From Raja brachyura (lineage: Eukaryota): a stretch of 64,000 bases of DNA. Position 1 is the first letter of the stretch. Each line of letters opens with the position of its first letter. The stretch is taken from contig OY740809.1 of the NCBI GenBank assembly GCA_963514005.1, positions 25,854,001-25,918,000 on the forward strand, in the 5' to 3' direction. A model generated the notes under the pieces. The model did not search any database, was not told where the DNA came from, and worked only from the letters and a program-made list of their open reading frames with translations. Positions 1 to 55,390 of the stretch are shown here, one piece after another. Made by a program: the position numbers and the translations under genes.

Positions 1-473
1 TAAGACAAATAAAAAACTCAAGTACATAAAATTATTTTAAGCTGTACAAAGTCAAATAGGTTAGATTTTTCGCAAGCATTTATATTTTCTTAGTGTACTG
101 GACAATGCTTTCATTTCTTACATAGCTCTAATTTTCTCATAGATTCAAACATGATTTTGACTTTAATTAATCTTCACTGCGCCAAGGTCATGCTGTTAAT
201 TGATTAACAGTACTGAGCAATTTTAAAGAATGTTTTTTTAATTATTGTCATAAATTATGTCAAATATTTGGAAGAGAAGCAGAGTTAATGGTGCAGATCA
301 ACAACCCTTCATCAGATTGATTTTCACTGATGCCCAATATTTGTTTTGTGAACTCGATCAACTGGTTTGAGCTTTGCTTGGCATCAGAGTATTCTTTTTT
401 TAAATTGCATCTGCACTATTATTCAAAAGGAAAAACTTTCAATTTTTGTGATACTAAATTGTAATTGTTAAAA

Positions 474-3483: not shown

Positions 3484-4147
3484 AAGTGAAAATAAGATTT
3501 AGTTACATTGCAGCAGCTCAGTCAAGTAACATTTTGTTACCTGGAGGCACCAGAAGGCAACCAGCACAACATTTTACTCATCAGATCAGATCCAGACAAA
3601 ACAATTAGTGTCCCTGTTAAAAGGGAGGGGGGGAGGGGGGTGAATTAAAATTTAAAAACAAAACTACACCTAAAGTTTTAAGTAAACAAACTGTAGCGAA
3701 GAATGACTCTTTTAAATCGTGGAGCGTGACAGTGAGATACAAAAATCAACCACTTTCATCCAGAGAAACCAAGCATGCAGTTAAAATATATGATTCAACT
3801 TGCATACCATTTACTTCACGTGGAAATTATTTTTTTTATTATTGTGACAAAAGAATATCCGCTCAAAAGCAGTTATCCCCCACTGTAAATACACAGATTC
3901 AACTTTAAAGTCAACGTCCCAGAGTAATATTAATCCAAGTTTTCTTCAAGTATACTGTGGTTCATTTCTCAAAGCAAACCAGTTGGGATGATTGGTCACA
4001 TTCAAAGACCAAGAAGTGTATTTCAATTTCTTACATTAAGAGGAGCAGTGTCCCCTCCAAAACACAACAAAATTATTGTTGATCATTCAGCTCGACCCCC
4101 ATTTGCCCAATCCTACCTTCCTCAATTAATTTAATATTCAAATACCT

Positions 4148-6620
4148 TTGAATTGAATTGAATTAATTTTATTAGCCAAGTATGTATACATACAAGGAAT
4201 TTGCCTTGGATCTTTGCTCACAAGGATAACCACACAATATACTGTAGACAATTAAAAATAAAACGTTATAATTTAAACATGTGAAGAATAAAATATAATA
4301 CCAGAGCAAAAGGAGGCTACAGACTTTTGGTTATTGAGTAGAGCTATTGCTCTGTTTTTATGTCTGACTGTGGCAGCTTTGACAGACCGGATCGCCTCTC
4401 AGAGGGAAGTACTTCAAAGAGTTTGTGGCCAGGGTGAGAGGGGTCAGGGATGTTCTTACCCGCACACTTCCTGGCCCTTGCAGTGAACAGTTCATCGATG
4501 GGGGGGGGGGGGGGGGGAAGGTTGCAGCCAACAACCTTCTCTGCTGATCGAACGATGCGCTGCAGCCTCCAGATGTCGTGCTTGGTGGCTGAGCCAAACC
4601 AGACCATGATGGAGAAGGTGAGGACAGACTCTATGCTGGCAGTATAAAACTGGACCATCATTGCCTGTAGCAGATTTGTTTTCTCAGCTGCTGCAGAAAG
4701 TACATCCTCTCTTTGGCCTTTTTGACAGTGGAGTCAATGGTGGTCTTCCATTTTATGTTCCTGGAGATGATGTTTCCAAGGAGCTTAAATGACTCCACAG
4801 ATGTGACTGTGTTGTTGATGGTGAGTGGGGTGAGGGGAGGGGGCGCTCTCCTAAAGTCTACAATCAATTCCACCGTCTGAGCTCCAGGTTGTTGCGATGG
4901 CACCAGGACACCAGCTGTGTCACTTCATGTCTGTAGTCAGATTCCTCCCCATCCTGGATCAGTCCAATCAGGGTTGGGTCATCTGGAAACTTGAGAAGCC
5001 TGACAGAGGAGTCTGTGGAGGTGCAGTCATTGGTGTAGAGAGAGTAAAGGAAAGGGGAGAGTACGCAGCCTTGCCATGCTCCTATGCTGGGAGTCAGCAG
5101 GTCCGAGATGTACTTTCCCAGCCTCACATGCTGCTTCCTGTCTGTCAGGAAGTTGCTGATCCACTGACAGCGGGGTTCAGGCACAGTCAACTGGGAGAGT
5201 TTGGAGTGTAGTAGCTCAGGCACAATGGTGTTGAACGCAGAGCTAGAATCCACAAACAAAATCCTTGCATAGGTCCCCTGGCGGTCTAGGTGCTGGAGGA
5301 TGACGTGCAGGCCAGGTTGACTGTGTCATCCACAGATCTATTGGTCTAGTATGCAAACTGCAGTGGGTTCAGCAGGGGGTTTGTGATATTTTTCAGGTAG
5401 GCCAGCACAAGTCTTTCAAGGGTCTTCATGATTACAAAGGTCAGTGCGACAGGCCTGTAGTCATGAAGACCGGTAATCCTTGGGTTTTTGGGTACAATAA
5501 CAATAGTGAAGACTTTGAAGCAGGCAGGGACAGTGAGAAGGGTCTGAAGCAGGCTCTTGACCTGAAACGTCACCCATTCCTTCTCCGGAGATGCTGCCTG
5601 TCCCGCTGAGTTACTCCAGCATGTTGCGTCTACCCCAGGCAGGGAGAGTGCAGGTATGCAGGGACTGATTGAAAATGTCTGTGTAGACTGGCGCCAGTTG
5701 CTCGGCACAGAGCCTGAGGGTAGAGGGAGAAACATTGTCCGGTCCTGGAGATTTCTGACTTCTCTGTCTCCTGAATAACTTTCTATTGTTAGTGGTGGAG
5801 AAGTGGCCAGACTGATGTTGGGCAGCAACGAGGGGGTGGGTAGCGGAGGAGGGCCCAGTCTTTGCAGACTGGAGTCAGGCTGTAAGTAGGCGTGAAGTGG
5901 TGATTGGGGAGGAGTGGGTGGGGGAGGGGGTACCAGGGTTATGTTTCTGTCTATCAAACCTGCAGTAGAACTCGTGCAGGTCCTTGGTCAGCTGACGATT
6001 GTCCAAGGAGTGGGGGGTTTTCCTTTTGTAGCTGGTGATTTCTTGCAAGCCCTTCCACACTGAAGATGAGTCATTAGTTGACAACTTGCTCCTCAACTTC
6101 TCAGAGTACCTTTCCTCGGCAGCTCTGATTCCTCTTCTCAGCTTGTACTTGGCCTGCCTGTAGAGGTCTGCATCCCCGGTTCTCTAGGCCTCATCTTTAG
6201 ACTGGCAGAGCTGTCTGAGTTCTGCTGTAAACCAGGGCTTGTCATTGTTGAACCTGATCTGGGTCCTAGTGGGAATGCAACTGTCCTGACAAAAGCTGAC
6301 ATATGATGTCACATTGTCTGCATATTCATCAAGGCTTGTGGTTGCTTCCCTGAACACATTCCAATCAGTGCAATCAAAGCAGGACAGTAGGTTTTCAATG
6401 CCCTTGCTTGCCCACTTTTTCATTGTTCTTACCACAGGCTCAGCACATTTTAGTTTCTGCCTGTAGGTCAGAATAAGATGAACTAAACAATGATCAGAGA
6501 GTTCCAGAGCTGCAAGGGGAACTGAGCAATATGCTACCAAAGCAAAATATGAGGTGCTGTTCTTCCAATTAATTGTAGTATAACAATGATCGCATGTTCT
6601 CTCCCCTCTGGTGGGGCAGG
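4148..6620 (-). mobile_element. Degenerate Rex1/Babar-type LINE with (TTCAA)n tail and nested insertions
   Basis: Frameshifted RT pieces: DYRPVALT, QFAY, FVDSSSAFNTI, QGCVLSPFLYSLYT, FPDD, FYTASIESVLT; microsatellite 3' end at 4148-4164. Confidence 0.85.
5536..5635 (+). mobile_element. Penelope-derived short module inserted into the Rex LINE
   Basis: TSD CAGGCAGGGA(C/G)AGTG at 5521-5535 and 5636-5650. Confidence 0.8.
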
Positions 6621-6949
6621 TAGCGTGAAGTCTGTATTTTGTAAACCTGTCCATCTGTTTGGAACACAACCAATGACTGAGCCTCAACAGCCTTTTAAAA
6701 GACAGATTTCCAAAGATTCAGCTCATCTCAATCCTACATCGCCTACTTCGTACTTTAACATCATGACCCTTCCTTCCAGACTCCTCCACCACGGGAAATA
6801 TCCTCCCTCTAAATTAGTTTTATTCACATTCTCTAAGTTTCTAGAGATTTGAGGCTCGGTATACTAAATCTGTTCAAATGTGACAACACCATCCACATCC
6901 TGAACTGGCCGAGCCAACCTTTGCTGCACTCATTCAAAGCAAGCACCCC

Positions 6950-7777
6950 ATTGTGCTTGGCCTCATCAGCAACAACGATGAATCGGCCTACAGGGAGGAG
7001 GTCCAGCACTTAGCAGCATGGTGCGCCGACAACAACCTGGCCCTTAACTCCAAGAAGACCAAGGAGCTCATTGTAGACTTCAGGAAGTCTAGGGGCGGCA
7101 CGTACACCCCCATCCACATTAACGGTACGGAGGTGGAACGTGTTTCTAGCTTCAGGTTCCTGGGAGTCAACCTCTCCGACGACCTCTCTTGGACCCACAA
7201 TACCTCAACTCTGATCAAGAAGGCTCACCAGCGTCTCTTCTTCCTGAGGAGACTGAAGAAGGTCCATCTGTCTCCTCAGATCCTGGTGAACTTCTACCGC
7301 TGCGCCATCGAGAGCATCCTTACCAACTGCATCACAGTTTGGTATGGCAACTGCTCTGTCTCCGACCGGAAGGCATTGCAGAGGGTGGTGAAAATTGCCC
7401 AACGCATCACCGGTTCCTCGCTCTCCTCCATTGAGTCTGTCCAAAGCAAGCGTTGTCTGCGGAGGGCGCTCAGCATCTCCAAGGACCTCTCTCACCCCAA
7501 CCATGGACTGTTTACCCTCCTACCATCCGGGAGGCGCTACAGGTCTCTCTGTTGCCGAACCAGCAGGTCCAGGAACAGCTTCTTTCCGGCGGCTGTCACG
7601 CTACTCAACAACGTACCTCGGTGACTGCCAATCACCCCCCCCGGACACTTATTGTTATTTATTCAAACCATTTGCTGTGTCGCTCATCCAGGGAGATGCT
7701 AATTGCATTTCATTGTCTCTGTACTGTACACTGACAATGACAATTAAAATTGAATCTGAATCTGAATCTGAATCTGA
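6950..7777 (+). mobile_element. 5'-truncated, young Rex1/Babar-type LINE with (TCTGAA)n tail
   Basis: Uninterrupted 223 aa RT C-terminus (WCADNNLALNSKKTKELIVDFR, FLGV, FYRCAIESILT, LPSGRRYR, SFFPAAV) and a hexamer tail. Confidence 0.9.
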
Positions 7778-8522
7778 TTGAAGTAAAGACACAAAAATTA
7801 TACATATATTGTCCACTCGCCTCCATTCAGTCAAGTGTCAGAAAAAATAACTGTGGTATAACATTGTTAATGCCCTTTTCTGAGATAGAGGATTCCAGTC
7901 AATGTTTTCCCCCCTCAAGGCTAAAATCGTTCATCATTTGGAACCAGTTAACCTCAACCGCGCTATCAGTTTATTTTCTAGTCCCACGACCCTCATCTGT
8001 TATTCTGCAATAAAACCCAAATGTAGTCTTTAATTTTACAAATCACATTCCCTGTGCAGTCAAAATCTATAGCGTAGTCTCCATTTCTCAGTTAACTGCT
8101 TCCAACTAATGCTCTTCCTCTGTCATTCACAATTGTATGCATGATTCTGAGAAACTGCAGAAAAATTAGACTTCATCTTTCAGTACAATACTCCCATCTA
8201 GTGGTCAAGGTAACATTTGTCTTTTTTCACCCCACATTGGATTCTTATTAAAATAAGTTCAGCAACAGCACATACCATACAAATATTACAAAAATCAGAA
8301 ATATAGAACAATGTTTAAAGGTGGTTTTCAATAAAAACAAGTTGTGCCCACTTTGTCAAATACTTGATATCTCAAAATATTGTGTTAGGATATCTAAATA
8401 AACAACTTGTTTTATCGTTATTTTTCAAGCTTCATCAGATATTTTCCTGTTGAAAGTAAAACATTAAAGGTGGAAGTAGTGTCATTAAGTGTCAAGTAGC
8501 TACCAATGAAATGCGGAAAGTA

Positions 8523-9160
8523 CCACCCCCTCCCTCCCCAGGTACTTTCCCCTGCAACCGCAGACGCAACACCTGTCCCTATACCTCCCACCTCAACTCC
8601 ATCCAAGGACCCAGACAGTCTTTTTAGGTGAGGTAGAGGTTCACTTGCAACTCCTCCAACTTCATCTACTGTACCCGCTGTTCCAGGTGTGGATGCCTGT
8701 ATATCGGCGAGACCAAGCGCAAGCTCGGCTATTGTTTCGCTGAACACCTCCACTCAGTCTGCCTAAACCTACCTGATCTCCTGGTTGCTTAACACTTCAA
8801 CACTCCGACCCATTCCCATACTGACGTTTCTGTCCTGGGCCTCCTCCATTGTCAGAGTGAGGCCCAGCACAAATTGGAAGAACAGCACCTCATATTTTGC
8901 TTGAGTAGCTTACACCCCAGCAGTATGAACATTGACTTTTAACTTCAGGTAGCCTTTGCTTTCCCTCTCTCTCCCCATCCCCTCCCACCTTCCGTTCTCC
9001 AACCAGTCTGTCTCCAACTACATTTTATCTCTGTACCACCCACTCAACCGACATCAGTCTGAAGAATGGTCCCAACCTGAAACATCACCCATTCCTTCTC
9101 TCCAGAGATGCTGCATGTCCCGCTGAATTACTCCAGCATTTTGTGTCTATCTTCAACCAG
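8523..9160 (+). mobile_element. Penelope-like element 3' fragment (GIY-YIG endonuclease plus terminal module)
   Basis: FTCNSSNFIYCTRCSRCGCLYIGETKRKLG..FAEH in the + frame, followed by the CTGAAGA...GAAAC terminal module. Confidence 0.85.
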
Positions 9161-11160: not shown

Positions 11161-14100
11161 GCTATTTCTAAATGAAAAACATTTAAGCGACTGACATTTG
11201 GTCTATCAATCACAACTGGAGGCAAATACATCTGGGTTGAGTCAGTCCCACAATAAAGACTGCATATAAAGCAAATTTACACATTTAACTAAGACTATTA
11301 CTATTAACTGTTTCAGGATAAAACAGATAGTCTCTGTTAAGTTAATCCTACTTATTTTGTAATTAAACCATCTTCACATATAAAAAAGTATGTCTCCAAA
11401 CGATTGCCTGATTTTCCACAATAGTGAGGTCCAAGCATCCATTGGGATTGTAATTGAGTTATTTTTTAATTAAATCCGAATTGAAATAGAACTCTAAATT
11501 GTAAGTCAGTCCCCTATAATAATATTATGAAATGTTTTAGCGTTATTTTATTTTTGGCTGGAGAACATGGATGGGTGATGTTTTATGTTGGGATCCTTCT
11601 TAATCAGACTGATTAGTCTGAAGAAGGGTCCCGACCCAAAACGTTACCTATCCATGTTCTCCAGCGATGCTGCCTGACCCGCTGAGTTACTCCAGCATTT
11701 TGTGACTTTCCTTGGTAAACCAGCATCTCCGGTTCCTTGTTCCTACTTTACTTTCTGCTTCTATATTCTAATCAACGTAGTGAACATGTTCCATATTTCC
11801 AGAAGAAAGCATCGTCATTTCCCCACATACTTGGAAACATTTATAGCACATTGAGAAATGCACGGAAACCCTACTTAATATTTGTACCATACTTTTATGT
11901 GAACTTTCTACTGGGAGGCATAAAAAGAGCACTACACTGGCAAAGTCAATGAAGAATATGATACTAGGTGCTGAAATGAGACACCTGTTCAACAATAGTT
12001 AAGTTTGAAAGTGGTTGATAACTACTGGGCTATGTATTAACAACAGTTTAACAGGAAAATTCGTTTTAATTTAGATCTCCCATCTTCTTGCCATCCAAAA
12101 TCCATCATTGAAATTCACTTGGTTCTAGTCATTTAATTTTAATAAACAATTTAATTCAAGGCATGTTAACGAAAAGCTAAGTGGTCGCTATTTGAAAAGA
12201 AAGGCTTTGCTCCTTCCACAGAGACCCACCCAGAAACCAATAATTTGGTACCAATGGGTGGAAAACTCTTGAGTAGCTGACTAAACCATCGCCTCATGGG
12301 GTGATTTCATGCTACTTGCACGATAAGAAACAATGACCATGATTTGCCAATAACCATTATACAATTTGAGCTGGACACTTTTTGACAACTGGCCTGCGCA
12401 GCTTCTTTTGGAGCAGGAAGAGAAATGTCAACGCTAGAAGATGCAATTGAACGCTCATCGTGGAGAAATATATTAATTTTCAACTTCTCAATCAGAAGTT
12501 AATAAACAAAGGCAAACATTGTATATAACCCATCCTAAGATGAAGAGATGCAGTTCTTTTGCCCCAGGTGTTATTTTGATGGTAAATTAAGAATTGGGTT
12601 TCAATGTGAAAAGTGATCAAAAATAATAAAAGTATGCATCAAGAATAAATTGTTTTGATAAATTAATATACAAACTATTAAGTGTAAATTATTAAATGTA
12701 ATATAAACTATTAAATGTAAGTTTGTTTTCTATACATTTGAAGATTCTTGGATTAAAAATAAATTATGATTCAAATATATGCCTTCCACCTGGGGCTGCT
12801 GCATTTCACTTTCTCTTTTGACTTCATATTGAAAATTTTGTCTTGGAACTATTTTTTCTAATAACGTCTATATCATATAATAGTACAACACATAGTTTTA
12901 TATTTATTGGAAACCCAAGTAAACAATTTAATTGATATATCTCCTACATAGTGCCCTGCTGCACTTTCATCAAAGAAGGTTCCCGGCTCGACACATCACT
13001 TATCCATGTTCTCCAGGGATGCTGCCTGCCCCGCTGAGTTACTCCAACAATTTGTCTTTTAAAAAATATATATAAACCAGTATCTGCAGTTCCTTGCATT
13101 TCATTGCATTTGGTTTGAATCGTCACAAAACTTCAAAGCCATTTTAAGAGGGCAGAATTCACATCTCTACAGAATGTTAACCTTCAATCTTATCCAATAA
13201 CCAATTAGCTCAAGTTTCTGATCAACATTAGTGCACTTAGTACCTGTACAATGCAGCTAACTAGGAGATTCCTAGATGAAATCAATATTGATGGTGCAAA
13301 CAATGGTATTCTTTGAAAATGTAATCTCAAAATATTATTTCAAATAATGCATGCAATGGAAATGTTATCAATCTGCAAGCTGTAACCAAGCAGACTAAAC
13401 AACGTAGTGTATTAATTTTTGCCACCAAATCACATCCATATCTCATCTACGGATTTAGAATACTCACTATCGCACAGCAAAATAATATTTAAGCAAGGCT
13501 ACAATTATCTAAAAGGATGGAGAACTAATTTAGTTACTAAACAGAATAATTTGTAAAGTGGAAAAGATAAACATAGATTTATTTTTTGACAATATAATGA
13601 AACATAATTTGCTTTACCTCCTCTAAAGAACCTTTAATATGCTTCTTAAAAAAAAAAAATTATCAACATTTTCAAATATCTTTCATTGGTGTCAAGTTAT
13701 GGCCTACCATTTGCTACAAGAAATAAATAAATATACATACTTCCCACTTCACAAAATATCAGCGTCAACACTGTATTAACAACAAAAGGTCCGCTGGAAA
13801 GAGAGATTCTGAGCAAATTAAGAAATCAGCATTATCTTCCAAAATGTATAGGAAGTTAAATTGTAAACATTCCAGACCAGCAACACAAGGAGAAACAAAA
13901 TCACATCACAGTCAAAATTGAAACCGTGTTAATGTATTTAGTTTCTTTTGAACAATGGTGCAAAGTGAAAAAAAATGTTTGTCATTCTAGTACTGGGAAA
14001 GATAAATGTTTGGAACCCAAAATATGCATCCATTTTTGAAAAACTCTGTGCATCTGCAGAACATATTTGCAAGTTTCCTGCTTTATCACTTCACAGAGAT

Positions 14101-23273: not shown

Positions 23274-25614
23274 AATTCATTCCAGAAGACGACTAACTCC
23301 GAGCGTGCACACTAGTAATTTTATTGTCCCACCACCACTGCTATCACCAGAGAGGACTTTCCATAATGGCACAACTACATCCCAGTATCTGTAGATTTAA
23401 TGCAACAAATCAATTAAAATTAACCAAAAAGGCATTTCCCTATTCACACAGCAACAATAGGTCCAATTTCCTATAATAGTCTCAACTAATTTACCATATA
23501 ATATAAACAATGTTTTGTCTTGAGATTACAGATTTCACTTTATACTTCACAAGCCAAGGCAAAACTTTTCATTGCATAAAAAATAACAATGAAGTAAATA
23601 TGATAAAGCAAAATGAAAACATGCAATGTGGCATTTAAGTAAATTAGTATTCCTAGCACCTACCATGAGATGTAGAGATGCAGAAGGTGAAATGAATGGC
23701 AAATACCAGTACTACAGAATGAGTGCGTTAGGCAGAAAAGACAGGAAAAAGACAGAATTGAGATTTAGTGACAATACATACAAACTTAATTTTGTATACA
23801 ATGGTGCACACATATAAAGGATGCAATGACAAAATATAATTAGACATGCCAAGACCTTGCAGTAATATACTGCCACTGGAATTAATTATTGATATTTTTT
23901 GTAAAGAATACACGAGGAATACTTGGAGAAGTTTATCAACAATTCCTGTACTGAAACCGCAACTAAACATTCTTGTTTTAATTACCTACCTTAAATGGAT
24001 AAAAGGCTAGAAGAAAATAAATGCGGAAACATTTTGCTATTCAATTTAAGCCATGCTGATACAGATTTTCACTAAATTGAGAAAACTGGCAGCCATTTAT
24101 TCAAGAACCTTTCCTCTGCAGGATGATGAATATTGTACAAAGACTATAAATTGCAAGTAATTTCTTGGTTTCTACAGATTTGCCTCCACTGAAAAAGAAT
24201 CAAATGTAAAATCAATGCCAAAAAACAAGTTGTCAAACAATTCCATAAAAACAGCTATTAGCTTTGGCATTAAAATCTAACCAGAACTGTTAGATTTTAA
24301 TTGTTGAAGTAATCAAATAGATCATACCTAAAGGTATAGTACTATCAAAATATGTAATTCAATACTGAAGATTCAAACCCGGACGATTTTCTCTTCATAA
24401 AGAAAAATAGAAGGGAACTGTGTGTGATACTGGCACCATCTGATTAAAACTAATATTGTTTCTTGCCTATACTAACAAAAAGGTTGTGATATAAAATCAC
24501 CGATAAGTAAAGAAAATACAAAAATCACAGAAAACTGGATTTTTTCTATGGCTGTATCATCACTGTCGGTAAAGGTGTAACAGTTCCATATAGTCCTGTT
24601 TTAATCACAAATTCAAGTATAAATTAGAATTCAGCAGCAGCACTTATTATTTCACTTCTGCAAACCGCACGAAGCGTTGCCAGCCGTAAAGATTAACAAA
24701 CTGTTAATTGGCAATTAGTGTTCTTGCAATTCTTATTTTTCTTGAAGAGAGGTTTGAAGAAGATTTATCAATAAAAGACAACCTCTGCAAAATCTACTGG
24801 CCTTTATACAATAGTCACTGGGTCGCATGTTCCACAGGGTCAATAATAACCATATTATATTCAAAGATTCAAATTTTCAATGAATTATTTTTAAAACTGG
24901 ATTTTGTAGCTAGATTATGTTGTGCATAGAATACAAGAACATAGTTTAAAGGTAAACTCCAAAAAGAAATTACAGAATACTACTTAATGAAGTATCAGTC
25001 TAGTAACATATGTAATAGATAGGTTCAGATAATACAAAAAATAATGAAACTACAAGGAATCCAATTTCCCCATAGCAAAAAGGCTGGATAAAATGTGTGC
25101 TTAAGCTAAACCTTAGATCTGGCTTATTTTCAAACAACACACCCACAAAATACAATTCAATGGCAGATATGACAGCATTTCAAAGTTTTTCGTTGCTTTA
25201 TAAATACACAAAATGAAAACTGTAAATGCTCCAAAAAGCATTTGAACACTTATTTTGTACATTATATTCCAAATAGGTCAGAAAGACTCCCAGCACACTG
25301 ATTTAAAATATATTATTTGGGAATGTTAGGTAGATCTTATATTTTAACAAATAAGATATTCTGTATTACATTATTTTGCTCCAAATCAAAAATATTGTAT
25401 TGATGAAAAATAAGCATAGGTTTAAGGGAAAATAAACAACTAATTATTCATACAGCATGAAATTAGTCTAAGGAAATAGCTCAGTGAATATCAGATATAC
25501 TAAAAGGTACCCAAATCATACTTTGCAGACCAAAATTACATTAGCTTGATCTTTCACTATACGTCTAGCCATTAACGAAATAGCAAGGCAGAGCAGATTA
25601 CTAAAGTGTTAGGT

Positions 25615-25846
25615 AGACACAAAATGCTGGAGTAACTCGGCGGGTGAGGTAGCATCTCTGGAGAGAAGGCATGATTGGGCGACGTTTGGGGTCGAGACCC
25701 TTCTTCAGACCGAGACTCTCAGTCTGAAGAAGGGTCTCGACCCGAAACACCATCTATTTCCTTTTCTCCAGACATGCTGCCTAACCCGCTGAGTTATTTT
25801 GTGTCTATCTTCGACGTAGACCAGCATCTGCAGTTCCTCCCTACAC
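25615..25846. mobile_element. Fold-back Penelope-derived module in TRAPPC3 intron 1
   Basis: Two inverted copies meeting at TCTTCAGAC...GTCTGAAGA. Confidence 0.8.
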
Positions 25847-26011
25847 TTACTAAAATCCAATCTTGTGACCCCCCCCTCTCCTCCCCAACTTTTCATAATA
25901 TCAGGTTTCCACTTCCTAATGGAGAACAATGGACCACTGATTGAGCAGTAAATGAGGATCATTATAATACCAGCCAGTACATATTGTTAAACTTCTAAGC
26001 TTGTATACAGT

Positions 26012-26039
26012 CTGAAGAAGGGTCTCGACCCGAAACGTC
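26012..26039 (+). ncRNA. Minimal hammerhead ribozyme motif in a Penelope-derived short module (representative intact copy)
   Basis: CTGAAGA-A-GGGT[CTCG]ACCC-GAAA-CG-TC: CUGANGA core, helix II, GAAA, palindromic ACGU helix III and GUC triplet; activity unverified. Confidence 0.65.
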
Positions 26040-26631
26040 ACCAATACCTTTTCTCCAGAGATGTTGTCTGACCCGCTGAGTTACTCCAGTTTTTTGTGTG
26101 TATCTTCGGTTTAAACCAGTAACTGCAGTTCCTTCCTACACATACAATTCATATTCTTTCGAAATCATGCAAAGCTCAAACCGAGGGTGATAAACATTAA
26201 GCACCAGATTAAGTACGGGTCCGTCGATTGGATCAACCCTGGAGACTGCACTGTGCAGCAGGCAACAGAAACACTTTATTGAACTGGGTTGTCTTGGTAC
26301 ATTATATGCAAGAAAACCGCTGTAGCAGAATGTGAAGGTCCTGTCAGCCGTCGGGAAACCCAGGGAGTTGCGGTTCAGGGCTGTGTTGGAAGGAACTGTA
26401 GATGCTGGTTTAAATCGAAGATAGACACAAAATGCTGGAGTAAGTCAGTGAGACAGGCAGCATCTCTGGAGAGAAGGAATGGGTGAGGTTTCGGCTCGAG
26501 ACCTTTCTTCAGACCCGGTTCAGGACTAACTGGTGAAGTGGGCCCCGGGCCCGCTGCTGGAAGATGAAGCAAAACAATGTTCTTATCCCCTCCGGCCTCA
26601 ATAACTGCTTGGCTTCCAAACGGTAGATTAC

Positions 26632-26689: not shown

Positions 26690-26920
26690 CGATTTCCAAC
26701 CGCCTCTTCGATCCTCACACAGAAACCTGTCCGCCGGATATCGGAACTCCAAATACGCATGCGCGTAACCTTCGCCCATGCACTGGGGGTTGTAGTCCCG
26801 TCTCCCGGAACTGGCCGCCCGCTCACCAGGGCTGTTGGGGGAGAGAGACTACAAGGACCACAATCCACCGCGACACTGTAATGGCGCCCACAGGGGACTA
26901 CAACGCCCAGAATCCCCCAC
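26690..26920. promoter_or_regulatory. TRAPPC3 proximal promoter, CpG-rich, with three ACTACA..CCCA (ZNF143/THAP11-type) motifs and NRF1-like and YY1-like sites
   Basis: ACTACAACCCCCAGTGCATG (minus, ~26777-26796), ACTACAAGGACCA (26848), ACTACAACGCCCAGAATCCCC (26897), ACGCATGCGC (~26755), AATGGCG (26880); directly upstream of the ATG. Confidence 0.7.
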
Positions 26921-27061: not shown

Positions 27062-27520
27062 AAGATAGACACAAAGGGTTTACACAAAATGCTGGAGAAA
27101 CTCAGCGGGTGCAGCAGAATCTATGGGGCGATGGAGATAGGCAAGGGATTCGGCCCGAAACGTTGCCTATCTCCTTCGCTCCATAGATACTGCTGCACCC
27201 GCTGAGTTTCTCCAGCATTTTGTGTAAACCCTTGATTTTCCAGCATCTGCAGTTCCTTCTTTAACAAGATAGACACAAATGTGTAGGAAGGATCTACAGA
27301 TGCTTGTTTAAGTCGAAGATAGACACATAAAGCTGGAGAAAGTGGGACGGGCAGCATCTCTGGAGAGAAGGAATGGGTGATGTTTCGGGTTGAGACCCTT
27401 CTTCAGACCCAAAAAGTCACCCAATCCTTCTCTTCAGATATGCTACCTGTCCCGCTAAGTTATTCCAGCATTTTGTGTCTATCTTCGATTTAAATCAGCA
27501 TCTGCAATTCCTTCCTACAC
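27062..27520. mobile_element. Cluster of nested or fold-back Penelope-derived modules
   Basis: Repeated GACACAAAATGCTGGAG...CTCAGCGGG...GCAGCATC motifs on both strands. Confidence 0.75.
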
Positions 27521-28114: not shown

Positions 28115-28565
28115 CCTACAATGGCAGGGTCTCTGTGGTCAATTTAAAGATGGCATTGGAACTGTGTCCAGCTACACAGTCACGGGTATAAAGCAAGTCG
28201 AGCAGGAGACTGAGCACACAACCTTGAAGTGTCCCTGTGGTGATGGTCAGCGAGGAGGAGATGTTGTTGCTTATTCGGACTGACTGATGTCTGCCGATGA
28301 CGAAGTTGCAGAGGGAGGAGCAGAGACCCAGTTCTACAAGTGTGGCAATGAGATTGGAAGAGATGGTGGTGTTGAACGTTGAGCTGTAGCCGATGAACAA
28401 CAGCATGACGCATGAGATCTTGTTTCCCAAGTGGGCAGCAGCAGAGTGGTGAACCAGCGAGATCACTTCCGCTGCTGATTTATTGCAGAAGTAGGAACAT
28501 TAACGTAGGTCCCGGTCATGACTGAGACAGTTGATTTGCATAATAACCGATCTTTTGAAGCACTT
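28115..28565 (-). mobile_element. Decayed Rex1/Babar RT fragment
   Basis: LFIGYSSTFNT...TGTLQGCVLS..LYTRDC. Confidence 0.75.
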
Positions 28566-29629
28566 GAATTACTTCACAGATGTAGGTTGCGTCACATTCT
28601 GAGAAGTTGTAGATGGAATGGAACATTTAAATTAACATTTTTAAAACGCTGTTTTAACACAATGGCTCGACTTTTTTCTGCCTAGTGTACTGCCTTGGGG
28701 AACTCTTGCAATGTTGTCAAGGGTCTGAGATAATTACTCTTTATCTCCAACCTAATGCTCTGCCAATGGCTAGACCAGGAAGTTTGGGCACTAGTTCAGT
28801 CAGGTCTGAGGTCAAGCGTGGCACGTTGGAGCAGGGTATATGTGTACGTGGGAACTGCCTTGGATATTGTATGTTCAGGGAGGCAAAAATCATGAGGAGT
28901 TGACAGTGATGGAGGGGGTGTGGGGAGTGAATTGACTGGATCAGCACCAAAGTATGGGTGCTGGGAGTTGAGAAGCAGGAACAAAATGAATGTGATGAGG
29001 TGGAATTGTGGGGTGAATGTGGTGAAAATAATCATAATAATAATAATAATATCTTTTATTGTCATTACACATAAGTGCAACGAGATTTGGTTTGCAACTT
29101 CGAGATTTCAGTTTGCAACCCCCGAGAACAAGGTTTGTAAAAACGAACATTTGACTAGTAACATCAACACAGACTAAAGTGCGAGGCCGGAAGACAGTCC
29201 ATGGGGGTGGGGGAGATACTCAGCAGGGCTGGTTCACTCTTGGAATGAGCAAAGACATCAACAATTTCTTCACTCATCGGCTACCTTCCTGTTTTGGCAC
29301 CACAAGACAAGGCCAAGTTTTCCTGACAGTGCTTTTCAATTACTTCACTACCTTTCCAGAGCGACTTGAGCTCCCCTACAATGCTCTGAAAGTAGCAGTC
29401 TACATGAATAATGACACCATCTGCATCCCAGAAGCAGTGTTGTGGTGGCAAGTGTAACGGCCAGTGAAATCTGCCCAACCAAACTTCTCAGATGCAGCAA
29501 AATGATTTGGAAATGGTTGCAATATACTTTTTGCTCCGGGTGAAAGTGATTTTCAATTTTAAAGGCTCAAGGAGGAAAACAATATTGTGGCTAGAAATTT
29601 GATTAAAATGGAAGTAAAGTGCAGATTAT

Positions 29630-29850
29630 AGACACAAAATGGTGGATTAACTCAGCGGGACAGGCACCATCTCTGGAGAGAAGAAATGGGTGATGTTTCG
29701 GGTTGAGACCCTTCTTCAGACTGAAGAATGGTCTCAAACCGAAACGTCACCCATCCTTCTCTCCAGAGATGCTGCCTGCACCGCTGAGTTACTCCAGCAT
29801 TTTGTGTTTATCTTCAGTTTAAACAAGCAACTGCAGTTCCTTCCTACACA
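29630..29850. mobile_element. Fold-back Penelope-derived module
   Basis: About 90 bp inverted arms centred on TCTTCAGACTGAAGA; degenerate TSD AAGT(G/A)CAGAT(T/C)A(T/C)A. Confidence 0.8.
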
Positions 29851-30554: not shown

Positions 30555-31615
30555 TTCAAGTCGAGTCAAGTCAAGAGAATTTAATGTCATGTGTCCCAGA
30601 TTGGACAATGGAATTCTTGCTTGCTGCAGCACGACAGAATATTTTAGGCATAATTACAGATCAGATCGGATCAGTGTGACCATATACTATAGAATACATA
30701 TATACATACATAAATACCCAGATAAAGTGCAATAGGTTGTTATAGTTCATAGTTTCTTTGAAGTTGTCTTTATAGTTATAGTTCATAGTTTCTTTGAAGT
30801 TGTGGGGAAGAGCTGTTCCTGAACCTGGATATTGCAGATTTCAGGCTCCTGTACCTTCTACCTGATGACAGGTTCTCACAGGTGTGTGGCCAGGATGGTG
30901 TGGGTCCTTGATGATGCTGCCAGCCTTTTTGAGGCAGCACCTCCGATAGATGCCCTCGAAAATGGCAGCCTTTTCCGCTCTTGGACGCTCAGGTTGCCAT
31001 ACCAAGCCACGGTGCAACCGGTCAGCATGCTCTCTGTGCACCTGTAGAAGTTTGAGAGAGTCCCCCTTTACATACCAACTCTCCGTAATCTTCTCAGGAA
31101 GTAGAGGCGCTGATGTGCTTTCTTTATGATTGCATCAGTGTTTTGGGATGAGGAGCGCTCTTCGGAAATATGCACGCCCAGCGATTTGAAGTTCTTGACG
31201 CTTTCCACCATCGACCCATTGACCCATAAATGGGACTGTGGGTCCCTATCCTACCCCTTCCGAAGCCCACAGTCAGTTCCTTGGTTTTGCAGGTGTTGAG
31301 AGCCAGCTTATTGTGCTGGCACCATTTGGTCAATCTCACTTCTGTACTCTGACCCGTCACCATCAGTGATACGTCCTACAACAGTGGTGTTGTTGGCAAA
31401 ATTCAAGATGGAGTTCGCACTATGTCCGGCTACGCAGTCATGGGTATAGAGTGAGTATTGCAGGGGGCTGAGCACACAGCCTTGAGGTGCTCCCGTGCTG
31501 ATTGTTATCGAGGATGACATATTTCCTCCAATACGGACAGTCTGTGGTCTTTGAATGAAGAAGTCAAGGATCCAATTGCAGAAGGATGCACAGAGACCCA
31601 GATCTGAGAGCTTGG
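30555..31615 (-). mobile_element. Decayed Rex1/Babar LINE 3' half
   Basis: [37 protein letters not shown]; (CTTGA)n-like tail. Confidence 0.8.
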
Positions 31616-31714
31616 TTCTTTTCACTGTGCCAAAAGTCCTCATGAAATTTTGAATATTTCTCTAGGTCGCAGATAACTTCCTCTGCCCAAGAAGCACAAC
31701 TTCAAATTATGCAG

Positions 31715-31811: not shown

Positions 31812-32017
31812 TCAAATTATGCAGTCCCTCTGTGGAACTGAACTCTGACAAGATCCTGTAGAAACAAGGAATTGCAGATGTTGTTTTACAAGTCTGAAGA
31901 AGGGTCCTGACCTGACAAGTCACTTATCCATATTTTCCAGAGATGCTATCTGACCTACTGAGTTGCTCCAGCACTTTGTGTCTTTTTCTCCCCCAGTAAG
32001 CTGCCTGCATTCTCTTT

Positions 32018-32208
32018 GAAGATAGACACAAAATGCTGGAGTAATCCAGCGGGACAGGCAGCATCTCTAGAGAGAAGAAATGGGTGACGTTTTGGGTCGA
32101 GACCCTTCTTCAGGATATAGAAGGAATGGATGATGTTTTTCGGGTCGAGACCCTTCTTCAGAAGATAGAAGGAATGGGTGACGTTTCAGGACGAGACCCT
32201 TCTTCAGA
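32018..32208 (-). repeat. Penelope-derived module with three tandem hammerhead-motif units (~47 bp period)
   Basis: Units at ~32073-32113, 32119-32161 and 32167-32207. Confidence 0.8.
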
Positions 32209-33420: not shown

Positions 33421-33609
33421 TGTTTAAGAAGGAACTGCAGATGCTGGAAAATCGAAGGCAGACAAAAATGCTGGAGAAACACAGCGGGTGAGGCAGCATC
33501 TATGGAGCGAAGGAAATAGGTGACGTTTTGGGTCGAGACCCTTCTTCAGACTTGACTCAGGTCTGAAGAAGGGTCTCGACCCGATATGTCGCCTATTTCC
33601 TTCGCTCAA
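33421..33609. mobile_element. Fold-back Penelope-derived module with 10 bp TSD
   Basis: TAAAGATCTA at 33411-33420 and 33610-33619. Confidence 0.8.
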
Positions 33610-34674
33610 TAAAGATCTACATTCATTCTTGTGGCAATGTATTAACCATACCACTAGATGGAGCCTACAGCCTTCGAAGTCCAAGGTTAGTTGTGCTGTG
33701 TGTTCACAGCAAAGATACTAGAGGAGGCTCCTCTAGTATCTTTGGTTCACAGTAAGGCTCAAGTGGACACACGAGTGGGCACATATGCACACAGGAAGAA
33801 AGTAGCTGGGCCCAAAGTTCCATCCTACACACAGAGCCAGAGATAGGTGGATCCAAAATTAAATGCCCACACACACACGTACACACTTTAAGTTATCTAA
33901 TCTATACCCATACACAGTATGTAGAAGAAGGATCTCAACCCGAAATGTCACCTGTTCCTTCTCTCCAGGGATGCTGCCTGACCCGCTGAGTTACTCCAGC
34001 ATTTTGTGTCTATCTTCAGTAGAAACAAAGAACTGTAGATGCTGGTTAGTACACAAAAGGGCACATGGTGCTGGAGTAACTCAGCAGGTCAAGTAGCAGA
34101 GAACAGTCTGAAGAAGGGTCCCGACCCAAACATCACCTTTTCATGTTCTCCAGGGATGTTTCTTGACCCACAGAATTACACTTTGTGTCCTTCCCATACA
34201 CATGTCTCTGTATGTACACATGTGCCTGAGGTCAGGTGGCCCCAAGATCAAATGTGCACACACTGTCCCTAAGGTCAAGGTAACCTCACTATTGTTAAAA
34301 TTGCATTGACAAAGATCGAGGAATCACTTTGGATAAGTGCAAATTAAATTTACCAAACTCATCTGTTAAATTCCATTGCTCCCTATTTTTAAATAACTCA
34401 AACCTTCACTTCACCCCACTATTGCACTTTCTAATATATTACCCAAAAGGCTGAGGGATTCTAAACTTTCTCTATTGCCAAACAATTTTTCAGTTGTTGC
34501 CAAGATCTGATTAAATATTTTCAAAGGTCACATTACGTTGCCTGGGAGGAGGGTGTGTTACCAATTACGCAATTTGCAGATTCAAATAATGCCAGTGGCA
34601 TCTGGATAAGATTACAGCAGGAAGTTCACATAACCTCCCTCTGCTGGTGAACAATACAAGTTAAGAGCTCAAGG

Positions 34675-43625: not shown

Positions 43626-44270
43626 AGCCCTGGCCCACTGTGCAAGTTCACCCAAGAGCTTGTATTAAGCACGTAGAATGAACGTAGCGGGTACATCAGA
43701 GCTCGGGACGTTTCTTAGTACGTACTCAGCAGGTACTCGGGAAATGTGGTAACTCATGAAGGTTTTTCAACATGTTGAAAAATGTCCACAAGTAAAATAT
43801 ACTCGGGATTTAAAAATTTGATACTTTTTAGCCTAGTCATACCGTAGTAGCTCGCGAGTTTACCGTAGTAGGACCTGGTGTCCTATATCACTGTTGTATG
43901 TTCATGATGGAAATAAGAATACTCAGTATATTTATTACCTTTGAATTGTAGTTTTATGTAATCCTCACATAATTTCTGAGTTCCATTTCACAATATTTAT
44001 CAGACATACAGAATGTTGCAATGTAATATTTTGCCCAATCTCAATTGTATCTTTCTATCTCAATAAATATCACAAAATATGCCATTGTTTCAGCCACATT
44101 ATGACAAAATATAGAATACAGGTTATTTGTTATCAGTCACCCCATCCCAGAAACAACAGTACTTAAAGAAGAACATTTGTTTTACTAATTTACAATGGCG
44201 ACTGAGATGCTACACAGAGATTTTAAACTCGAGAGAGCTCTTGGGTGAACTCGCACAGTGGGGCAGGGTT
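43626..44270. mobile_element. Harbinger-type MITE with TGA TSD, nested in a Penelope-derived module
   Basis: TIRs AGCCCTGGCCCACTGTGC / GCACAGTGGGGCAGGGTT; TGA on both sides; internal similarity to 49761-50059. Confidence 0.8.
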
Positions 44271-45379
44271 TGAGGCAGCATCTATGGAGCGAAGGAAATA
44301 GCCAATGTTTCGGGTCTGAAGAAGGGTTTCGACCCGAAACGCTGCATATTTCCTTCGCTCCATAGATGCTGCCTCACCCGCTGAGTTTCTCCAGCATTTT
44401 TGTCTACCTATGCCGATTAGCGATCACCCATACACACTAGTTCCATGTTATCTCACTTTCCTACTCCTGCACATTCGTGGCAATTTTTACATGGGCCAAT
44501 CACCCTACATACCTGCACGTCTTTGGGATGTGGGAAGAAACTGGAGCATCCAGAGGAAACCCAGGTAATTACAGTGAGAACATGCAAACTCCACACAGGC
44601 AGCATCCGAGGTCAGGATCAAATCCAGATACTGTGCTAGTTGTGTAATATACTGAGTTTATCAAGCATTGTATTTTACACTTAACAAGCAACATTTGAGA
44701 ATTAGTTCACAACTCTCGTTCCAGTCTTCAACGAAGTGCAGTGACCTGTGTGAAACTTTCCTTATCACTCAATCCTATAACAAAGACCACTCAGGACGTA
44801 GGATGTAGGATTAAAAACTGCTCTAATTAAATTCTATATCTGGTCTTTAACAGCCCCCCAGATTTTATTGGTTGATAATGCCAACGTTTGGAGAGCACGT
44901 CGATCAGTATCCCACCACAACTTGGTCATCACTTACCATAATCTCCATTACATAAATCATTCGTTCTCCAGATATCATGGACAGTGCTGATGTCTCCACC
45001 AGATATCTTGGGTTTGGTCTTACAGGTCGTAAATCTTTCATCATAGTTGGTCCCTCAAGATGGAGAACCACTCAGTTGAACTCCAGCCCGTTGGCTCAGA
45101 GATGATTGACAAGGCCAATGTGCAACCTGCAGTCTCTGCCTTAGGTAGAACAGGAGGCGGTAGATGGGGTAGGTGAATGAGTACTTCATTGTACATTCAC
45201 TCATTTGTGGATCAATAGTGGGGATACTAACCTGCGAGAGGACACTGACATTGGTTTGCTTATCATCCCAGTGGATTTGAGGAGCAATGTTAAGGTCATC
45301 TTTCAAGTGCCTTGAAATGCCACTTAATTAATTACCACTTAATTAATGCCATTGCACAATACTGCCCTCCACCAAAAAA

Positions 45380-46312: not shown

Positions 46313-46369
46313 CCCCAAGTTATTCGATTCATTTTGATTCGAGTTCAGTCCCATTCAAGCCCCAATAGG

Positions 46370-47037
46370 ATCCCACTACTGGCCACATCTTCCCGTCCCC
46401 ACCCCTTTCTGCTTTCCACAGACCATTCCCTCCGCAACTCCCTTACCACCCAAACCACCCCCTACCCAGGGTACTTTCTCCTGCAACCATAGGAGATGCA
46501 ACACCTGTCCCTTTACCTCCCCCCTCGACTCCAAGCAAAGACCCCAACAGTCTTTCCAGGGGCGAGGCAGAGGTCCACTTGCACCTCCTCCACCCTCACC
46601 TACTGTATCCGCTGTTCCACGTGTCAACTCCTGTATATCAGCGAGACCAAGCACAGGCTCGGCGATCGTTTCGCTGAACACCTCCGCTCAGTCCGCCTTA
46701 ACCTATCTGATCTGTCCTGGGCCTCCTCCATTGTCAGAGTGAGGTCCAGCACAAATTGGAGGAACAGCACCTCATATTTTGCTTGGGTAGCTTACACTCC
46801 AGCGGTATGAACATTGACTTCTCTAACTTCAAATAGCCCTTGCTTTCCCTCTCTCCCTATCCTCTCCCCCTTCTCAGTTCTCCCACCAGTCTTACTGTCT
46901 CCGACTACATTCTATCTCTGTCCCGCCCACTCCCCTGGCATCAGTCTAAAGAAGGGTCTCGACCCTAAACGCCACCCATTCCTTCTCTCCAGAGATTCTG
47001 CCTGTCCCACTGAGTTACTCCAGCATTTTGTATCTAC
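46370..47037 (+). mobile_element. Penelope-like element 3' fragment (GIY-YIG plus terminal module)
   Basis: TCTSSTLTYCIRCSTCQLLYISETKHRLGDRFAEHLRSV; colinear with the copy at 8523-9160. Confidence 0.85.
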
Positions 47038-47547
47038 CTCCCATTCTAATGAAGCTCATCCTCCCATTTGGTACAACGTACAAAACTTCTAAAGCCCCAA
47101 TTCCCAAAATTTCTAGATTTTTCCTCTTGTTTGTCCAGCATTCAAGTAAGTAATAATTCTAAAGTATATATATTTGTCTTGAAGAGCATGGCAGACATGT
47201 GCTTCTGACCCCAGCCAACGTTTCAGATGTCACAGCAGTTAACTAATTGAATAACTTCTCAGACTTTGACAGTTCCAGTATCTCATGAGTGGCAACGTTT
47301 TGACTGCATGAGAATAGAAAGCAGCCTCTTTTGTTCTCACCATAATTTATTTACATATTCCTCTGTAAAGCAATCCATCATCAGAGATACGCCTAGAGAA
47401 ATGTGATGACCAGTTGCGTGACCTGAATGTGCCAATTGGAGGCTCTTCCTTTTGTGTGTAAGCTATGCAATGAGCTCTTATGTCAGATGATATGTTTAGA
47501 TTGTCGGCTACATGTGAAATGTAACATCTGGTCCTTATCGTGGAGCC

Positions 47548-48624: not shown

Positions 48625-49400
48625 ATTGCAATTATAGTTCTACGTATGTTAGCAAACACTCTACCGAACGTCCTCAGGTGTATGTGGAGAGCATAAGGAT
48701 TAGATGCTTCATGCACTGATCCGGTAACTGAAACGCTCAATAACAAAGGAGGCTGCAGAAAGTGGTGGGCTTTTCCTGCTTCATCACAGGTGATGACCTC
48801 CCCACCATCAAAGGGATTTACAGGAAGCTCGGCCTCACGAAGGTGGCTATTATCATCAAAGACCCACATCACCCCAGCCACGCTCTCGTCTTACTGCTAC
48901 CATCAGGAAGAAGGTACAGGAGCCTGAGAACCATTAACTCCAGGAACAAGATCAACTTCTTCCCATCAACTCTCAGGCTCTTAAGTCACACTGCACAACC
49001 TTGACCACAACCCTACCTCAATGACAAACTACTATGAACTTCTTATAGGTAGACAAAAATGCTGGAGATACACAGCGGATGAGGCAGCATCTATGGAGAG
49101 AAGGAATAGACGACGTTTCGGGTCGAGACCCTGAAGGGGTCCGCTGGGTTTCTCCAGCATTTTTGTCTATCTTCAATTTCTCCAGCATCTGCAGTTCTTT
49201 CTCAAACATGGACTTCTTATAGGTTGCATATTGCTCTACATACTGCACCATTATGGTCTTGTGATCTAGTATAACTGATAGTGTATATTATTATTGTTTA
49301 GTGTGTGTTTATTTGTTGTGCTGTTGCATTATTGTACCTGTAAAGCTGCAACAAGTAAGAATTTAATTGTTCCATTCCTGGTGTATTTGACAATTAAGTA
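48625..49400 (+). mobile_element. Decayed Rex1/Babar LINE 3' fragment
   Basis: IIKDPHHPSHAL..LLPSGRRYRSLRT..FFPST. Confidence 0.75.
49051..49207. mobile_element. Fold-back Penelope-derived module with 17 bp TSD
   Basis: ATG(A/G)ACTTCTTATAGGT at 49034-49050 and 49208-49224. Confidence 0.8.
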
Positions 49401-50735: not shown

Positions 50736-50843
50736 AATAGTAAGATTAAACGAGAACTTACCAGTTTGAAGTTTGATCTTTATTTTATGAGGTGTCACGA
50801 TGAGGGATTACGTGAAGACCCCGCCAGCACGCATGCGCGACAT
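50736..50843 (-). repeat. DIRS 3' ITR with right extension (rE)
   Basis: 35 nt core shared (inverted) with the 5' ITR; 50736-50814 is the exact reverse complement of 50962-51040. Confidence 0.92.
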
Positions 50844-50961
50844 TCTTCAAAGCAGTGGTGTGAAATCACAGAACAAACAGTCACAATGACTGACATAGTA
50901 AGAGAAAAAAGAGAACTTTCATACCAGGTGATCTTTATAATAGAGGGTCGGGAGCGGAGGG

Positions 50962-51074
50962 CACGTAATCCCTCATCGTGACACCTCATAAAATAAAGAT
51001 CAAACTTCAAACTGGTAAGTTCTCGTTTAATCTTACTATTTTACTTCGGAGTCACGTGAGTGACTACGTGAAGA
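50962..51074. repeat. DIRS internal complementary region (ICR), spelling the circle junction
   Basis: A 79 bp match to the 3' end and a 37 bp match to the 5' end, overlapping at ATT (51038-51040). Confidence 0.92.
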
Positions 51075-51231
51075 TTTCAAAGCTCTGTGATTTCATGCCC
51101 TGGAAGCTCCATGCTCACACACCGCTAAAGCTGGGATAAGAGGATGGACGTGATTCAGACAAGACACTGGCTGAAAAACAAAACAGGTATTTATTCATAC
51201 CAAACACAATATTGTGTCCCATAAGGGTTAT

Positions 51232-54137: not shown

Positions 54138-54139
54138 GG

Positions 54140-55378: not shown

Positions 55379-55390
55379 GCGCACGACGAT

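What the first reader, a model, noticed from the sequence alone, without database searches (positions are those of the whole stretch)
26005..26140. High-copy short retroelement family built around a minimal hammerhead ribozyme
Seen: roughly 25-30 loci in 64 kb carry a 100-130 bp module with consensus (GG)GT-CTGAAGA-A-GGGTCTCGACCC-GAAAC-GTC-ACCCATTCC...GATGCTGCCTG.CCCGCTGAGTTACTCCAGCATTTTGTGTCTA. It contains the CUGANGA core, an extra A before helix II, helix II, GAAA, a palindromic ACGU in place of helix III and a GUC site. Helix I (GGGT/ACCC) can form in some copies (5540, 26485). The same module ends both GIY-YIG fragments (9055, 46943). Established: Penelope-like elements carry minimal hammerheads in their pseudo-LTRs, proposed to act as dimers. 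Inference: extrapolated genome-wide, this is a very abundant ribozyme-motif family mobilised in trans.
Basis: partly seen in the sequence, partly recalled or inferred. Interest (0 to 1): 0.75.

Follow-up and report, generated by a model that had tools for sequence, protein, structure and literature searches.

The report
Million-copy Penelope retroelement ribozyme stubs
These repeats are 100-135-base stubs of a Penelope-like jumping gene, estimated at about a million copies in this genome; most begin just before a predicted hammerhead ribozyme rather than at its cut site, so they are likely by-products copied from the start of the element's own RNA and not a separate ribozyme-driven family.

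Summary
The module is real: 52 pieces in the window and about 1.1 million estimated genome-wide. It is the pLTR end (minimal hammerhead motif plus tail) of a Neptune-type Penelope-like element. I found its autonomous partner, including young 4.04-kb tandem arrays that are 99.6-99.9% identical.

- Native helix I is 2 bp; GGGT/ACCC comes from flanks or junctions.
- Only 25 of 210 copies keep an intact core.
- 5' ends pile up 0-5 bases before CUGA (41 of 87 young copies) and not at the cut site (1 of 87).

Head-to-head pairs are single insertions: 85 of 98 have one short and one long 3' end, inside one target-site duplication. In 8 of 17 mini-tandems, ORF positions +184 to +229 are joined to that same 5' edge.

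Likely mechanism: internal priming at two sites, copying to the RNA 5' end, then target joining, head-to-head annealing or an end-to-end jump. Cleavage and the RNA start are untested. The scan noted the same 5' edge before, in another genome (e1-7858714). Verdict: a new member of a known kind, with useful mechanistic footprints.

The parts
26008..26142 (+). The finding's copy: solo short insertion with the long 3' end (tail), starting at -4/-3 before CUGA
   Evidence: no clear TSD
26012..26039 (+). Minimal hammerhead motif: CUGAAGA, extra A, 4-bp helix II with CUCG loop, GAAA, palindromic ACGU, predicted cut after C 26039; helix I only 2 bp (26010-11 with 26040-41)
   Evidence: sequence; only intact core of 29 anchored window copies; cleavage untested
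8522..9156 (+). 5'-truncated PLE copy: linker/GIY-YIG end, 3' UTR, module (short end)
   Evidence: 74% DNA identity to the young unit
46360..47044 (+). 5'-truncated PLE copy: linker/GIY-YIG end, 3' UTR, module (short end)
25607..25848 (.). Head-to-head inverted pair (one short, one long arm); 8-bp candidate TSD
27070..27262 (.). Head-to-head pair of young-subfamily type, short plus long arm, 17-bp TSD
27282..27519 (.).
29622..29848 (.). Head-to-head pair joined through the native quasi-palindrome TCAG-T-CTGA
33425..33611 (.). Head-to-head pair, 10-bp TSD
49043..49205 (.). Head-to-head pair, short plus long arm, 13-bp TSD
11558..11738 (.). Head-to-head pair, older subfamily
44254..44412 (.). 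Head-to-head pair with helix II variant GGGU-UUCG-ACCC
32015..32208 (-). Three ribozyme cores head to tail (46- and 49-nt spacing); each core is mutated
26384..26514 (-).
5542..5638 (+).

Best explanation
The module is the hammerhead-and-tail end (pLTR) of a Neptune-type Penelope-like retroelement, and the short copies are likely by-products made when the element's own enzyme primes inside its RNA and copies back to an RNA 5' end lying 3-7 bases before the ribozyme core. Numbering: 0 = C of CUGA. Shown: the autonomous 4.04-kb unit (3' UTR, ribozyme motif, tail, ATG at +163, RT, Cys linker, GIY-YIG); two fixed 3' ends near +93 and +129; a hard 5' edge at -5..0; target-site duplications; short-plus-long arms in inverted pairs; ORF-to-edge junctions. 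Inferred steps: (1) transcription starts at about -3 to -7. (2) The endonuclease makes a staggered cut of about 9-17 bp and a dimeric RT primes at +93 on one strand and +129 on the other, from one RNA or one source locus. (3) At the RNA 5' end the cDNA joins the target (solo copy), anneals to the partner cDNA, often through TCAG-T-CTGA (inverted pair), or jumps to a 3' end at +184..+283 (mini-tandem). (4) Short copies lack +130 onward and are probably dead ends. The ribozyme motif is constrained in the masters but does not set the ends of the short copies.
For: Partner: decayed full copy; young arrays with units 99.57-99.85% identical and RT/linker/GIY-YIG motifs; Pfam RVT_1 E 2e-4 and GIY-YIG E 2e-3 on decayed frames, both below the curated cut-offs; 137 protein relatives, nearest named 63% in Chiloscyllium.
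3' ends: 158 of 354 at +83..95, 132 at +115..135, none past +139.
5' ends: 146 of 354 at -7..0 against 11 at +27..30. Young subfamily: 41 of 87 at -5..0, 1 at +28; stop rate 8.6% per base there against 0.6% on either side (n = 94 with 7 unfetched UTR-bearing copies added).
TSD of 8 bp or more: 25 of 86 solos against 0.7 shuffled; 39 of 58 pairs.
Short-plus-long arms: 85 of 98 classifiable pairs, 49 expected, p 2e-14. Arms share 13 variants against 1.4 shuffled (24 pairs).
Mini-tandems: 17 of 20 tail-to-ORF loci; 8 of 17 restart at -3..-7; TSD 11-17 bp in 8 of 15 checked.
Precedent: internal RT start at two sites, both strands extended, uncleaved RNA as dominant substrate (PMC11167929); internal promoter in the pLTR (PMC2377424).
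Against: No RNA start was measured: only contigs were on offer.
The cap-G test did not discriminate. G precedes the -3 start in 62 of 100, but also precedes the +2 control start in 55 of 100 (Fisher p 0.39).
Nine of 17 mini-tandems restart elsewhere (-317 to +29), one of them next to the cut site.
Two loci share the junction +240/-70, so small non-autonomous tandem sources may exist.
The need for ORF-side template sequence is borrowed from a Poseidon element. Shared arm variants could also come from conversion after insertion. Clade was called from the linker motif; no tree was built.
Confidence: 0.7

Rival explanations
1. The copies are ordinary 5' truncations of long templates, and the edge at -5..0 is an RT stop or fold-back point set by RNA structure or by the quasi-palindrome TCAG-T-CTGA, not an RNA end.
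For: 23 of 77 inverted copies have a perfect palindromic junction there. Palindromes at inverted junctions are described for PLEs (PMC3846280 passages). The cap-G control is not specific.
Against: Solo copies and mini-tandem junctions, which need no palindrome, share the edge. The edge lies at the far side of the ribozyme for an RT moving 3' to 5'. The -3..+135 RNA folds no better than shuffles (z -1.18).
Confidence: 0.15
2. The short module is a self-propagating SINE-like or retrozyme-like family with an internal promoter, transcribed from short copies and mobilised in trans by the PLE protein.
For: Short copies outnumber ORF-linked ones: 43,384 module, 10,281 UTR-junction and 573 tail-to-ORF exact 34-mers in the young subfamily. 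D. virilis Penelope has an internal promoter. Retrozymes derive from pLTRs (bioRxiv 10.64898/2026.07.22.740005). A 311-bp tandem unit with one junction occurs at two loci.
Against: All six downstream-defined classes include UTR-bearing members. The commonest young variants appear in short and UTR-bearing copies alike (seen, not tested formally). Copies are dispersed or inverted, not tandem. Where templates show a 3' end, it lies at +184 or beyond.
Confidence: 0.12
3. Hammerhead self-cleavage at GUC makes the RNA ends that define the short copies.
For: The core block is nearly invariant across subfamilies. One of 87 young copies starts at +28 and one mini-tandem restarts at +29.
Against: Only 11 of 354 5' ends lie at +27..+30. 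Most copies contain the whole core, which a 3' cleavage product could not. Helix I is 2 bp, with U-G in the youngest subfamily. PAc uses uncleaved RNA in vitro.
Confidence: 0.03

Closest known systems
Neptune clade of endonuclease-positive Penelope-like elements (PMC8557442)
   Same: Single ORF with RT then GIY-YIG; CX2-5CxxC linker (CNRKRCYTC); partial tandems; inverted 5'-truncated copies; 30-40-bp tail at one end only; ribozyme motif in the pLTR.
   Different: About a million copies, four in five of the anchored ones only 100-135 bp with a fixed 5' edge. Clade not checked by phylogeny.
Minimal hammerheads of metazoan PLEs (Cervera and De la Pena 2014, PMC4209133)
   Same: CUGANGA and GAAA cores, base between 9 and 10.1, G10.1-C11.1, palindromic 15.2-16.2; mostly single dispersed motifs; some opposite-strand pairs.
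   Different: Helix I is 2 bp (as in D. virilis) rather than 4-5, and helix II is 4 bp. Copy number is far above the 4,000-9,000 that the paper calls remarkable, though counted by another method. No shark or skate term in the one supplement file that could be searched.
PAc, Poseidon element of Anolis (Frangieh et al. 2024, PMC11167929)
   Same: Two internal RT start sites 30-40 nt apart that make the tail; both strands primed; ribozyme not needed for insertion.
   Different: In PAc the ribozyme overlaps the ORF start; here ATG lies 163 nt downstream. The parts read do not describe short-plus-long arm pairing, a fixed 5' edge or end-to-end junctions.
Non-LTR retrozymes (bioRxiv 10.64898/2026.07.22.740005)
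   Same: Non-coding, hammerhead-bearing derivatives of PLE pLTRs, including monomers; reported in one chondrichthyan (mean 363 bp).
   Different: Defined as tandem repeats with a complete ribozyme in each unit. Here tandems are a small minority and most copies are TSD-flanked solos or inverted pairs with decayed cores.

Membership tests
EN+ Penelope-like element | Single ORF with PLE-type RT followed by C-terminal GIY-YIG | tested here: met
   DKG, YIDD, YIGET and FAEH motifs in order across one frame break; weak Pfam hits below cut-off; relatives carry RVT_1 and GIY-YIG
EN+ Penelope-like element | Partial tandems forming pLTRs; inverted 5'-truncated copy; 30-40-bp tail at one end; TSD | tested here: met
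Neptune clade | CX2-5CxxC linker before GIY-YIG | tested here: met
   definition from PMC8557442 passages, shared with Nematis and Naiad
Neptune clade | RT groups with Neptune references in a tree | not tested
   no named reference sequences were available from the tools
Minimal type I hammerhead (PLE type) | Core bases, extra base at 9/10.1, helix II, palindromic helix III, H17 not G | tested here: met
   masters and five subfamily consensuses; decayed in 185 of 210 copies
Minimal type I hammerhead (PLE type) | Helix I of 4-5 bp with covariation | tested here: not met
   2 bp in 34 of 40 UTR-bearing copies. Relatives in metagenome contigs pair at three positions in 118, 119 and 112 of 127 matches, not de-replicated. 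D. virilis has 2 bp.
Minimal type I hammerhead (PLE type) | Self-cleavage at GUC as dimer or with protein | not testable with these tools
   needs an in vitro assay; no raw RNA reads offered
Non-LTR retrozyme | Tandem units, each with a complete ribozyme | tested here: not met
   bulk of copies are solo or inverted; met only by rare arrays such as L486
Non-LTR retrozyme | Circular RNA expression | not testable with these tools
   contigs only
SINE-like non-autonomous family | Own master copies and lineages independent of the autonomous element | tested here: inconclusive
   no short-only class among six coarse classes; no tree of copies was built

The most novel reading that the evidence does not exclude
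The genome holds a million-fold fossil record of the Penelope-like transposition cycle, with two RNA pools. Short capped RNAs from the pLTR start give the stubs, the inverted pairs (one RT dimer priming both start sites on opposite strands) and, by end-to-end jumps or small circles, new partial tandems. On full-length RNA the 5' and 3' hammerheads pair through ACGU, cut out a unit-length RNA and allow a seamless 4-kb circle, which places the ORF-side binding site behind the 3' UTR and so templates the long copies and scar-free arrays. This would give the PLE hammerhead a role and explain how pLTRs regenerate.
Probability: 0.25. Interest if true: 0.75.

Novelty: new member of a known kind. Interest (0 to 1): 0.5.

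Why it matters
PLE hammerheads, inverted pLTRs with one tail, and two RT start sites are all in print, so the element type is no surprise. What this genome adds is scale (an estimated 1.1 million pieces, 3.6% of sampled DNA), a young near-intact master family, and countable junctions. These bear on open questions: Schostak et al. 2008 state that no mechanism for pLTR regeneration is obvious, and the ribozyme's role in vivo is unknown. The 5' edge, the short-plus-long rule and the ORF-to-edge junctions give exact positions to test by 5' RACE and in vitro priming. About two in five anchored copies sit in inverted pairs, a likely large source of double-stranded RNA in host transcripts (inference).

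Tried and rejected
- Rfam: no hit at gathering thresholds.
- Helix I as GGGT/ACCC: rejected.
- Splice acceptor at CAG|T as the cause of the 5' edge. It was considered because the UTR is pyrimidine-rich and the D. virilis intron ends at helix I. It was rejected because copies usually keep A-3 and G-2, the upstream base frequencies of 88 solos are near background beyond -5, and none of the joints shown and 90 reads as an intron on the element strand (75 and 46 joints were not shown).
- Cap-derived extra G: enriched in a local sample (14 of 26 at -3, 13 of 25 at -2) and in 62 of 100 genome hits, but also in 55 of 100 controls; TSD-anchored junctions are few. Left as inconclusive.
- A stable fold of the module: z -1.18.
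- Expression: the runs found are contigs, mostly 'RNA?' guesses, and their depth mirrors copy number. They show no start, strand or level. Their loose ends at -2..-4 are confounded by other subfamilies' UTRs and were not used.
- The first partner searches led to old, broken copies before the young family was found.
- Lunse et al. on dimer cleavage is not held; I saw only its title and a review's summary.
- A sequence look-up of earlier findings gave nothing.

Full report
Numbering: 0 is the C of CUGA (window 26012); the predicted cut lies between +27 and +28.

Observation. The copy at 26008/9-26142 carries the core, extra A, 4-bp helix II, GAAA, ACGU and GUC as described. A profile built from window copies finds 52 pieces (4,404 bp) and none in 3 shuffles. 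Rfam has no hit. One exact 31-mer occurs 12,457 times in G000, control 0. In 80 stretches of 10 kb taken at round coordinates (spread over large contigs, not random) there are 339 pieces, 192 spanning the core, and none in a shuffle. That gives about 1.14 million pieces (bootstrap 0.95-1.33 million) and 3.6% of bases.

The partner. Both GIY-YIG fragments end in the module. Walking upstream through staggered copies reached a decayed full element with pLTR, ATG, RT, linker and GIY-YIG. A young subfamily seen in the sample led to tandem arrays on C2 and C3 with a 4.04-kb period. The C2 units are 99.57-99.85% identical, there is a 5'-truncated leading copy, ATG lies at +163, and the ORF runs about 1,200 codons with a frame break in each unit examined. 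The linker CNRKRCYTC fits the CX2-5CxxC motif given for Neptune and Nematis (PMC8557442); no tree was built. The nearest named proteins are from the sharks Chiloscyllium (63%) and Stegostoma, so the host is probably a cartilaginous fish (inference). Exact 34-mers in the young subfamily number 43,384 in the module, 10,281 across the UTR junction and 573 from tail into ORF.

The ribozyme. Among five subfamily consensuses drawn from 74 of 99 UTR-bearing copies, the -4..+27 block is 97-100% identical, against 38-75% upstream and 80-100% downstream. The block is constrained, but its helix II loop is invariant too, so a second constraint such as a promoter is possible. Helix I is 2 bp in 34 of 40 UTR-bearing copies; GGGT/ACCC arises only from flanks or inverted junctions. 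Relatives in metagenome contigs pair at three helix I positions in 118, 119 and 112 of 127 matches, not de-replicated, so this element is at the weak end, like D. virilis (PMC4209133). CpG decay leaves 25 of 210 copies intact, 1 of 29 in the window. In inverted pairs a long hairpin would compete with the fold (inference). Cleavage is untested.

Ends. Of 210 anchored copies (sample plus window), 80 have a head-to-head partner, 42 keep upstream sequence (2 of these are insertions in another repeat) and 88 are solo, with the edge at -2..-5. Of 354 aligned pieces, 146 start at -7..0 and 11 at +27..+30; 158 end at +83..95, 132 at +115..135, and none past +139 (one of the three references stops at +134). 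In 87 young copies, 41 start at -5..0, 27 at -19 or further up, and 1 at +28. I left 7 listed copies unfetched because one search showed them to be UTR-bearing; with them added, the stop rate is 8.6% per base at the edge and 0.6% on both sides. TSDs of 8 bp or more flank 25 of 86 solos, shuffled mean 0.7.

Inverted pairs. Of 132 pairs, 98 could be classed, and 85 have one short and one long arm (49 expected, p 2e-14). One TSD flanks the whole pair in 39 of the 58 best-kept pairs, with no shuffle for this count. Arms of 24 young pairs share 13 variants against 1.4 when shuffled, with 47 unshared. Each pair is therefore one event from one source. This fits PAc, which primes both strands at two internal sites and is modelled as a dimer (PMC11167929). 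A tail on one arm only is known qualitatively.

Mini-tandems. I fetched 20 loci from the first C1 entries of the 573 tail-to-ORF sites. One is a full tandem, one has an internal jump, one is a lone fragment, and 17 join an ORF position (+184..+283) to the start of another module. Eight restart at -3..-7; the others at +2, +29, -14, -69, -70, -70, -79, -98 and -317. Each of the eight has a different ORF end; L470 repeats one junction on both arms, and L483 and L486 repeat a unit two to three times. TSDs of 11-17 bp flank 8 of 15 checked. Contigs of another organism show like joints (-3 to +191 and -2 to +271). This is what an RT leaves when it reaches a template's 5' end and jumps to a 3' end, or runs round a small circle (inference).

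Mechanism. The likely cycle is priming at +93 and +129, copying to an RNA end at about -3..-7, then target joining, annealing with the partner cDNA, or an end-to-end jump. I give 0.7 overall. The PLE origin is near certain; the RNA start is the weaker step. The cap-G test was not specific (62 of 100 against 55 of 100), and no raw RNA reads were offered. An RT stall or fold-back at TCAG-T-CTGA gets 0.15, an independent family in trans 0.12, and cleavage-defined ends 0.03.

Literature seen. PMC4209133: parts 1-2 of 4 and a term search of supplements, one file not searchable. bioRxiv 10.64898/2026.07.22.740005: parts 1-3 of 5; its supplements are closed and may list this family. PMC11167929: parts 1-2 of 4 and passages. 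PMC2377424: parts 2-3 of 4. Passages only: PMC8557442, PMC6765202, PMC3846280, PMC4038843. Lunse et al.: title only. Nine searches gave no listing whose title or abstract start describes this family in elasmobranchs or the fixed 5' edge; Repbase and subscription journals were not searchable. An earlier scan report (e1-7858714) notes the same 5' edge in another shark-like genome. I saw it after my own end counts, and it is not independent proof.

Verdict. This is a new member of a known kind, interest 0.5.

Noticed in passing
window 50736-55452 (ORFs on the minus strand): DIRS-like element with three long open frames: tyrosine recombinase 51232-52233 (Pfam Phage_integrase E 5e-6), RT 52203-54278 (RVT_1 E 5e-21) and a gag-like frame 54140-55426 with no Pfam hit; split inverted end repeats up to 100% identical. 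It looks young. The DIRS label is recalled.
   Followed up: partly
window 32015-32208 (-): Three ribozyme cores head to tail at 46- and 49-nt spacing, a geometry in which a cis dimer could form; all three are mutated. Similar 37-38-nt tandem joints appear in other organisms' contigs.
   Followed up: partly
L486 670-1591 and L475 488-822: A 311-bp unit (-70..+240) in three tandem turns at one locus and the same junction at another; L483 has a 328-bp unit, and C2:59590115/59590443 shows the same 328-bp period. Retrozyme-like by-products.
   Followed up: partly
window 26740-26920: GC-rich stretch with several ACTACA-type motifs on both strands, resembling a ZNF143-type promoter (motif recalled, not tested).
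   Followed up: no
L244-L366 (metagenome contigs): Many related hammerheads with the same GGG...CCC helix II frame and a covarying 3-5-bp helix I; several are head-to-head pairs too (L281, L345, L356), so the inverted arrangement is not limited to this genome.
   Followed up: partly
window 4344-5987, 6184-7624, 28116-28499, 31308-31661: Several decayed LINE-type RT fragments, read by eye from the translations.
   Followed up: no
L240 6850-6881 (-), positions -4..+29: TCAGT at the 5' edge resembles an initiator, and the core overlaps positions where downstream promoter elements lie; consensus motifs recalled and not tested.
   Followed up: no
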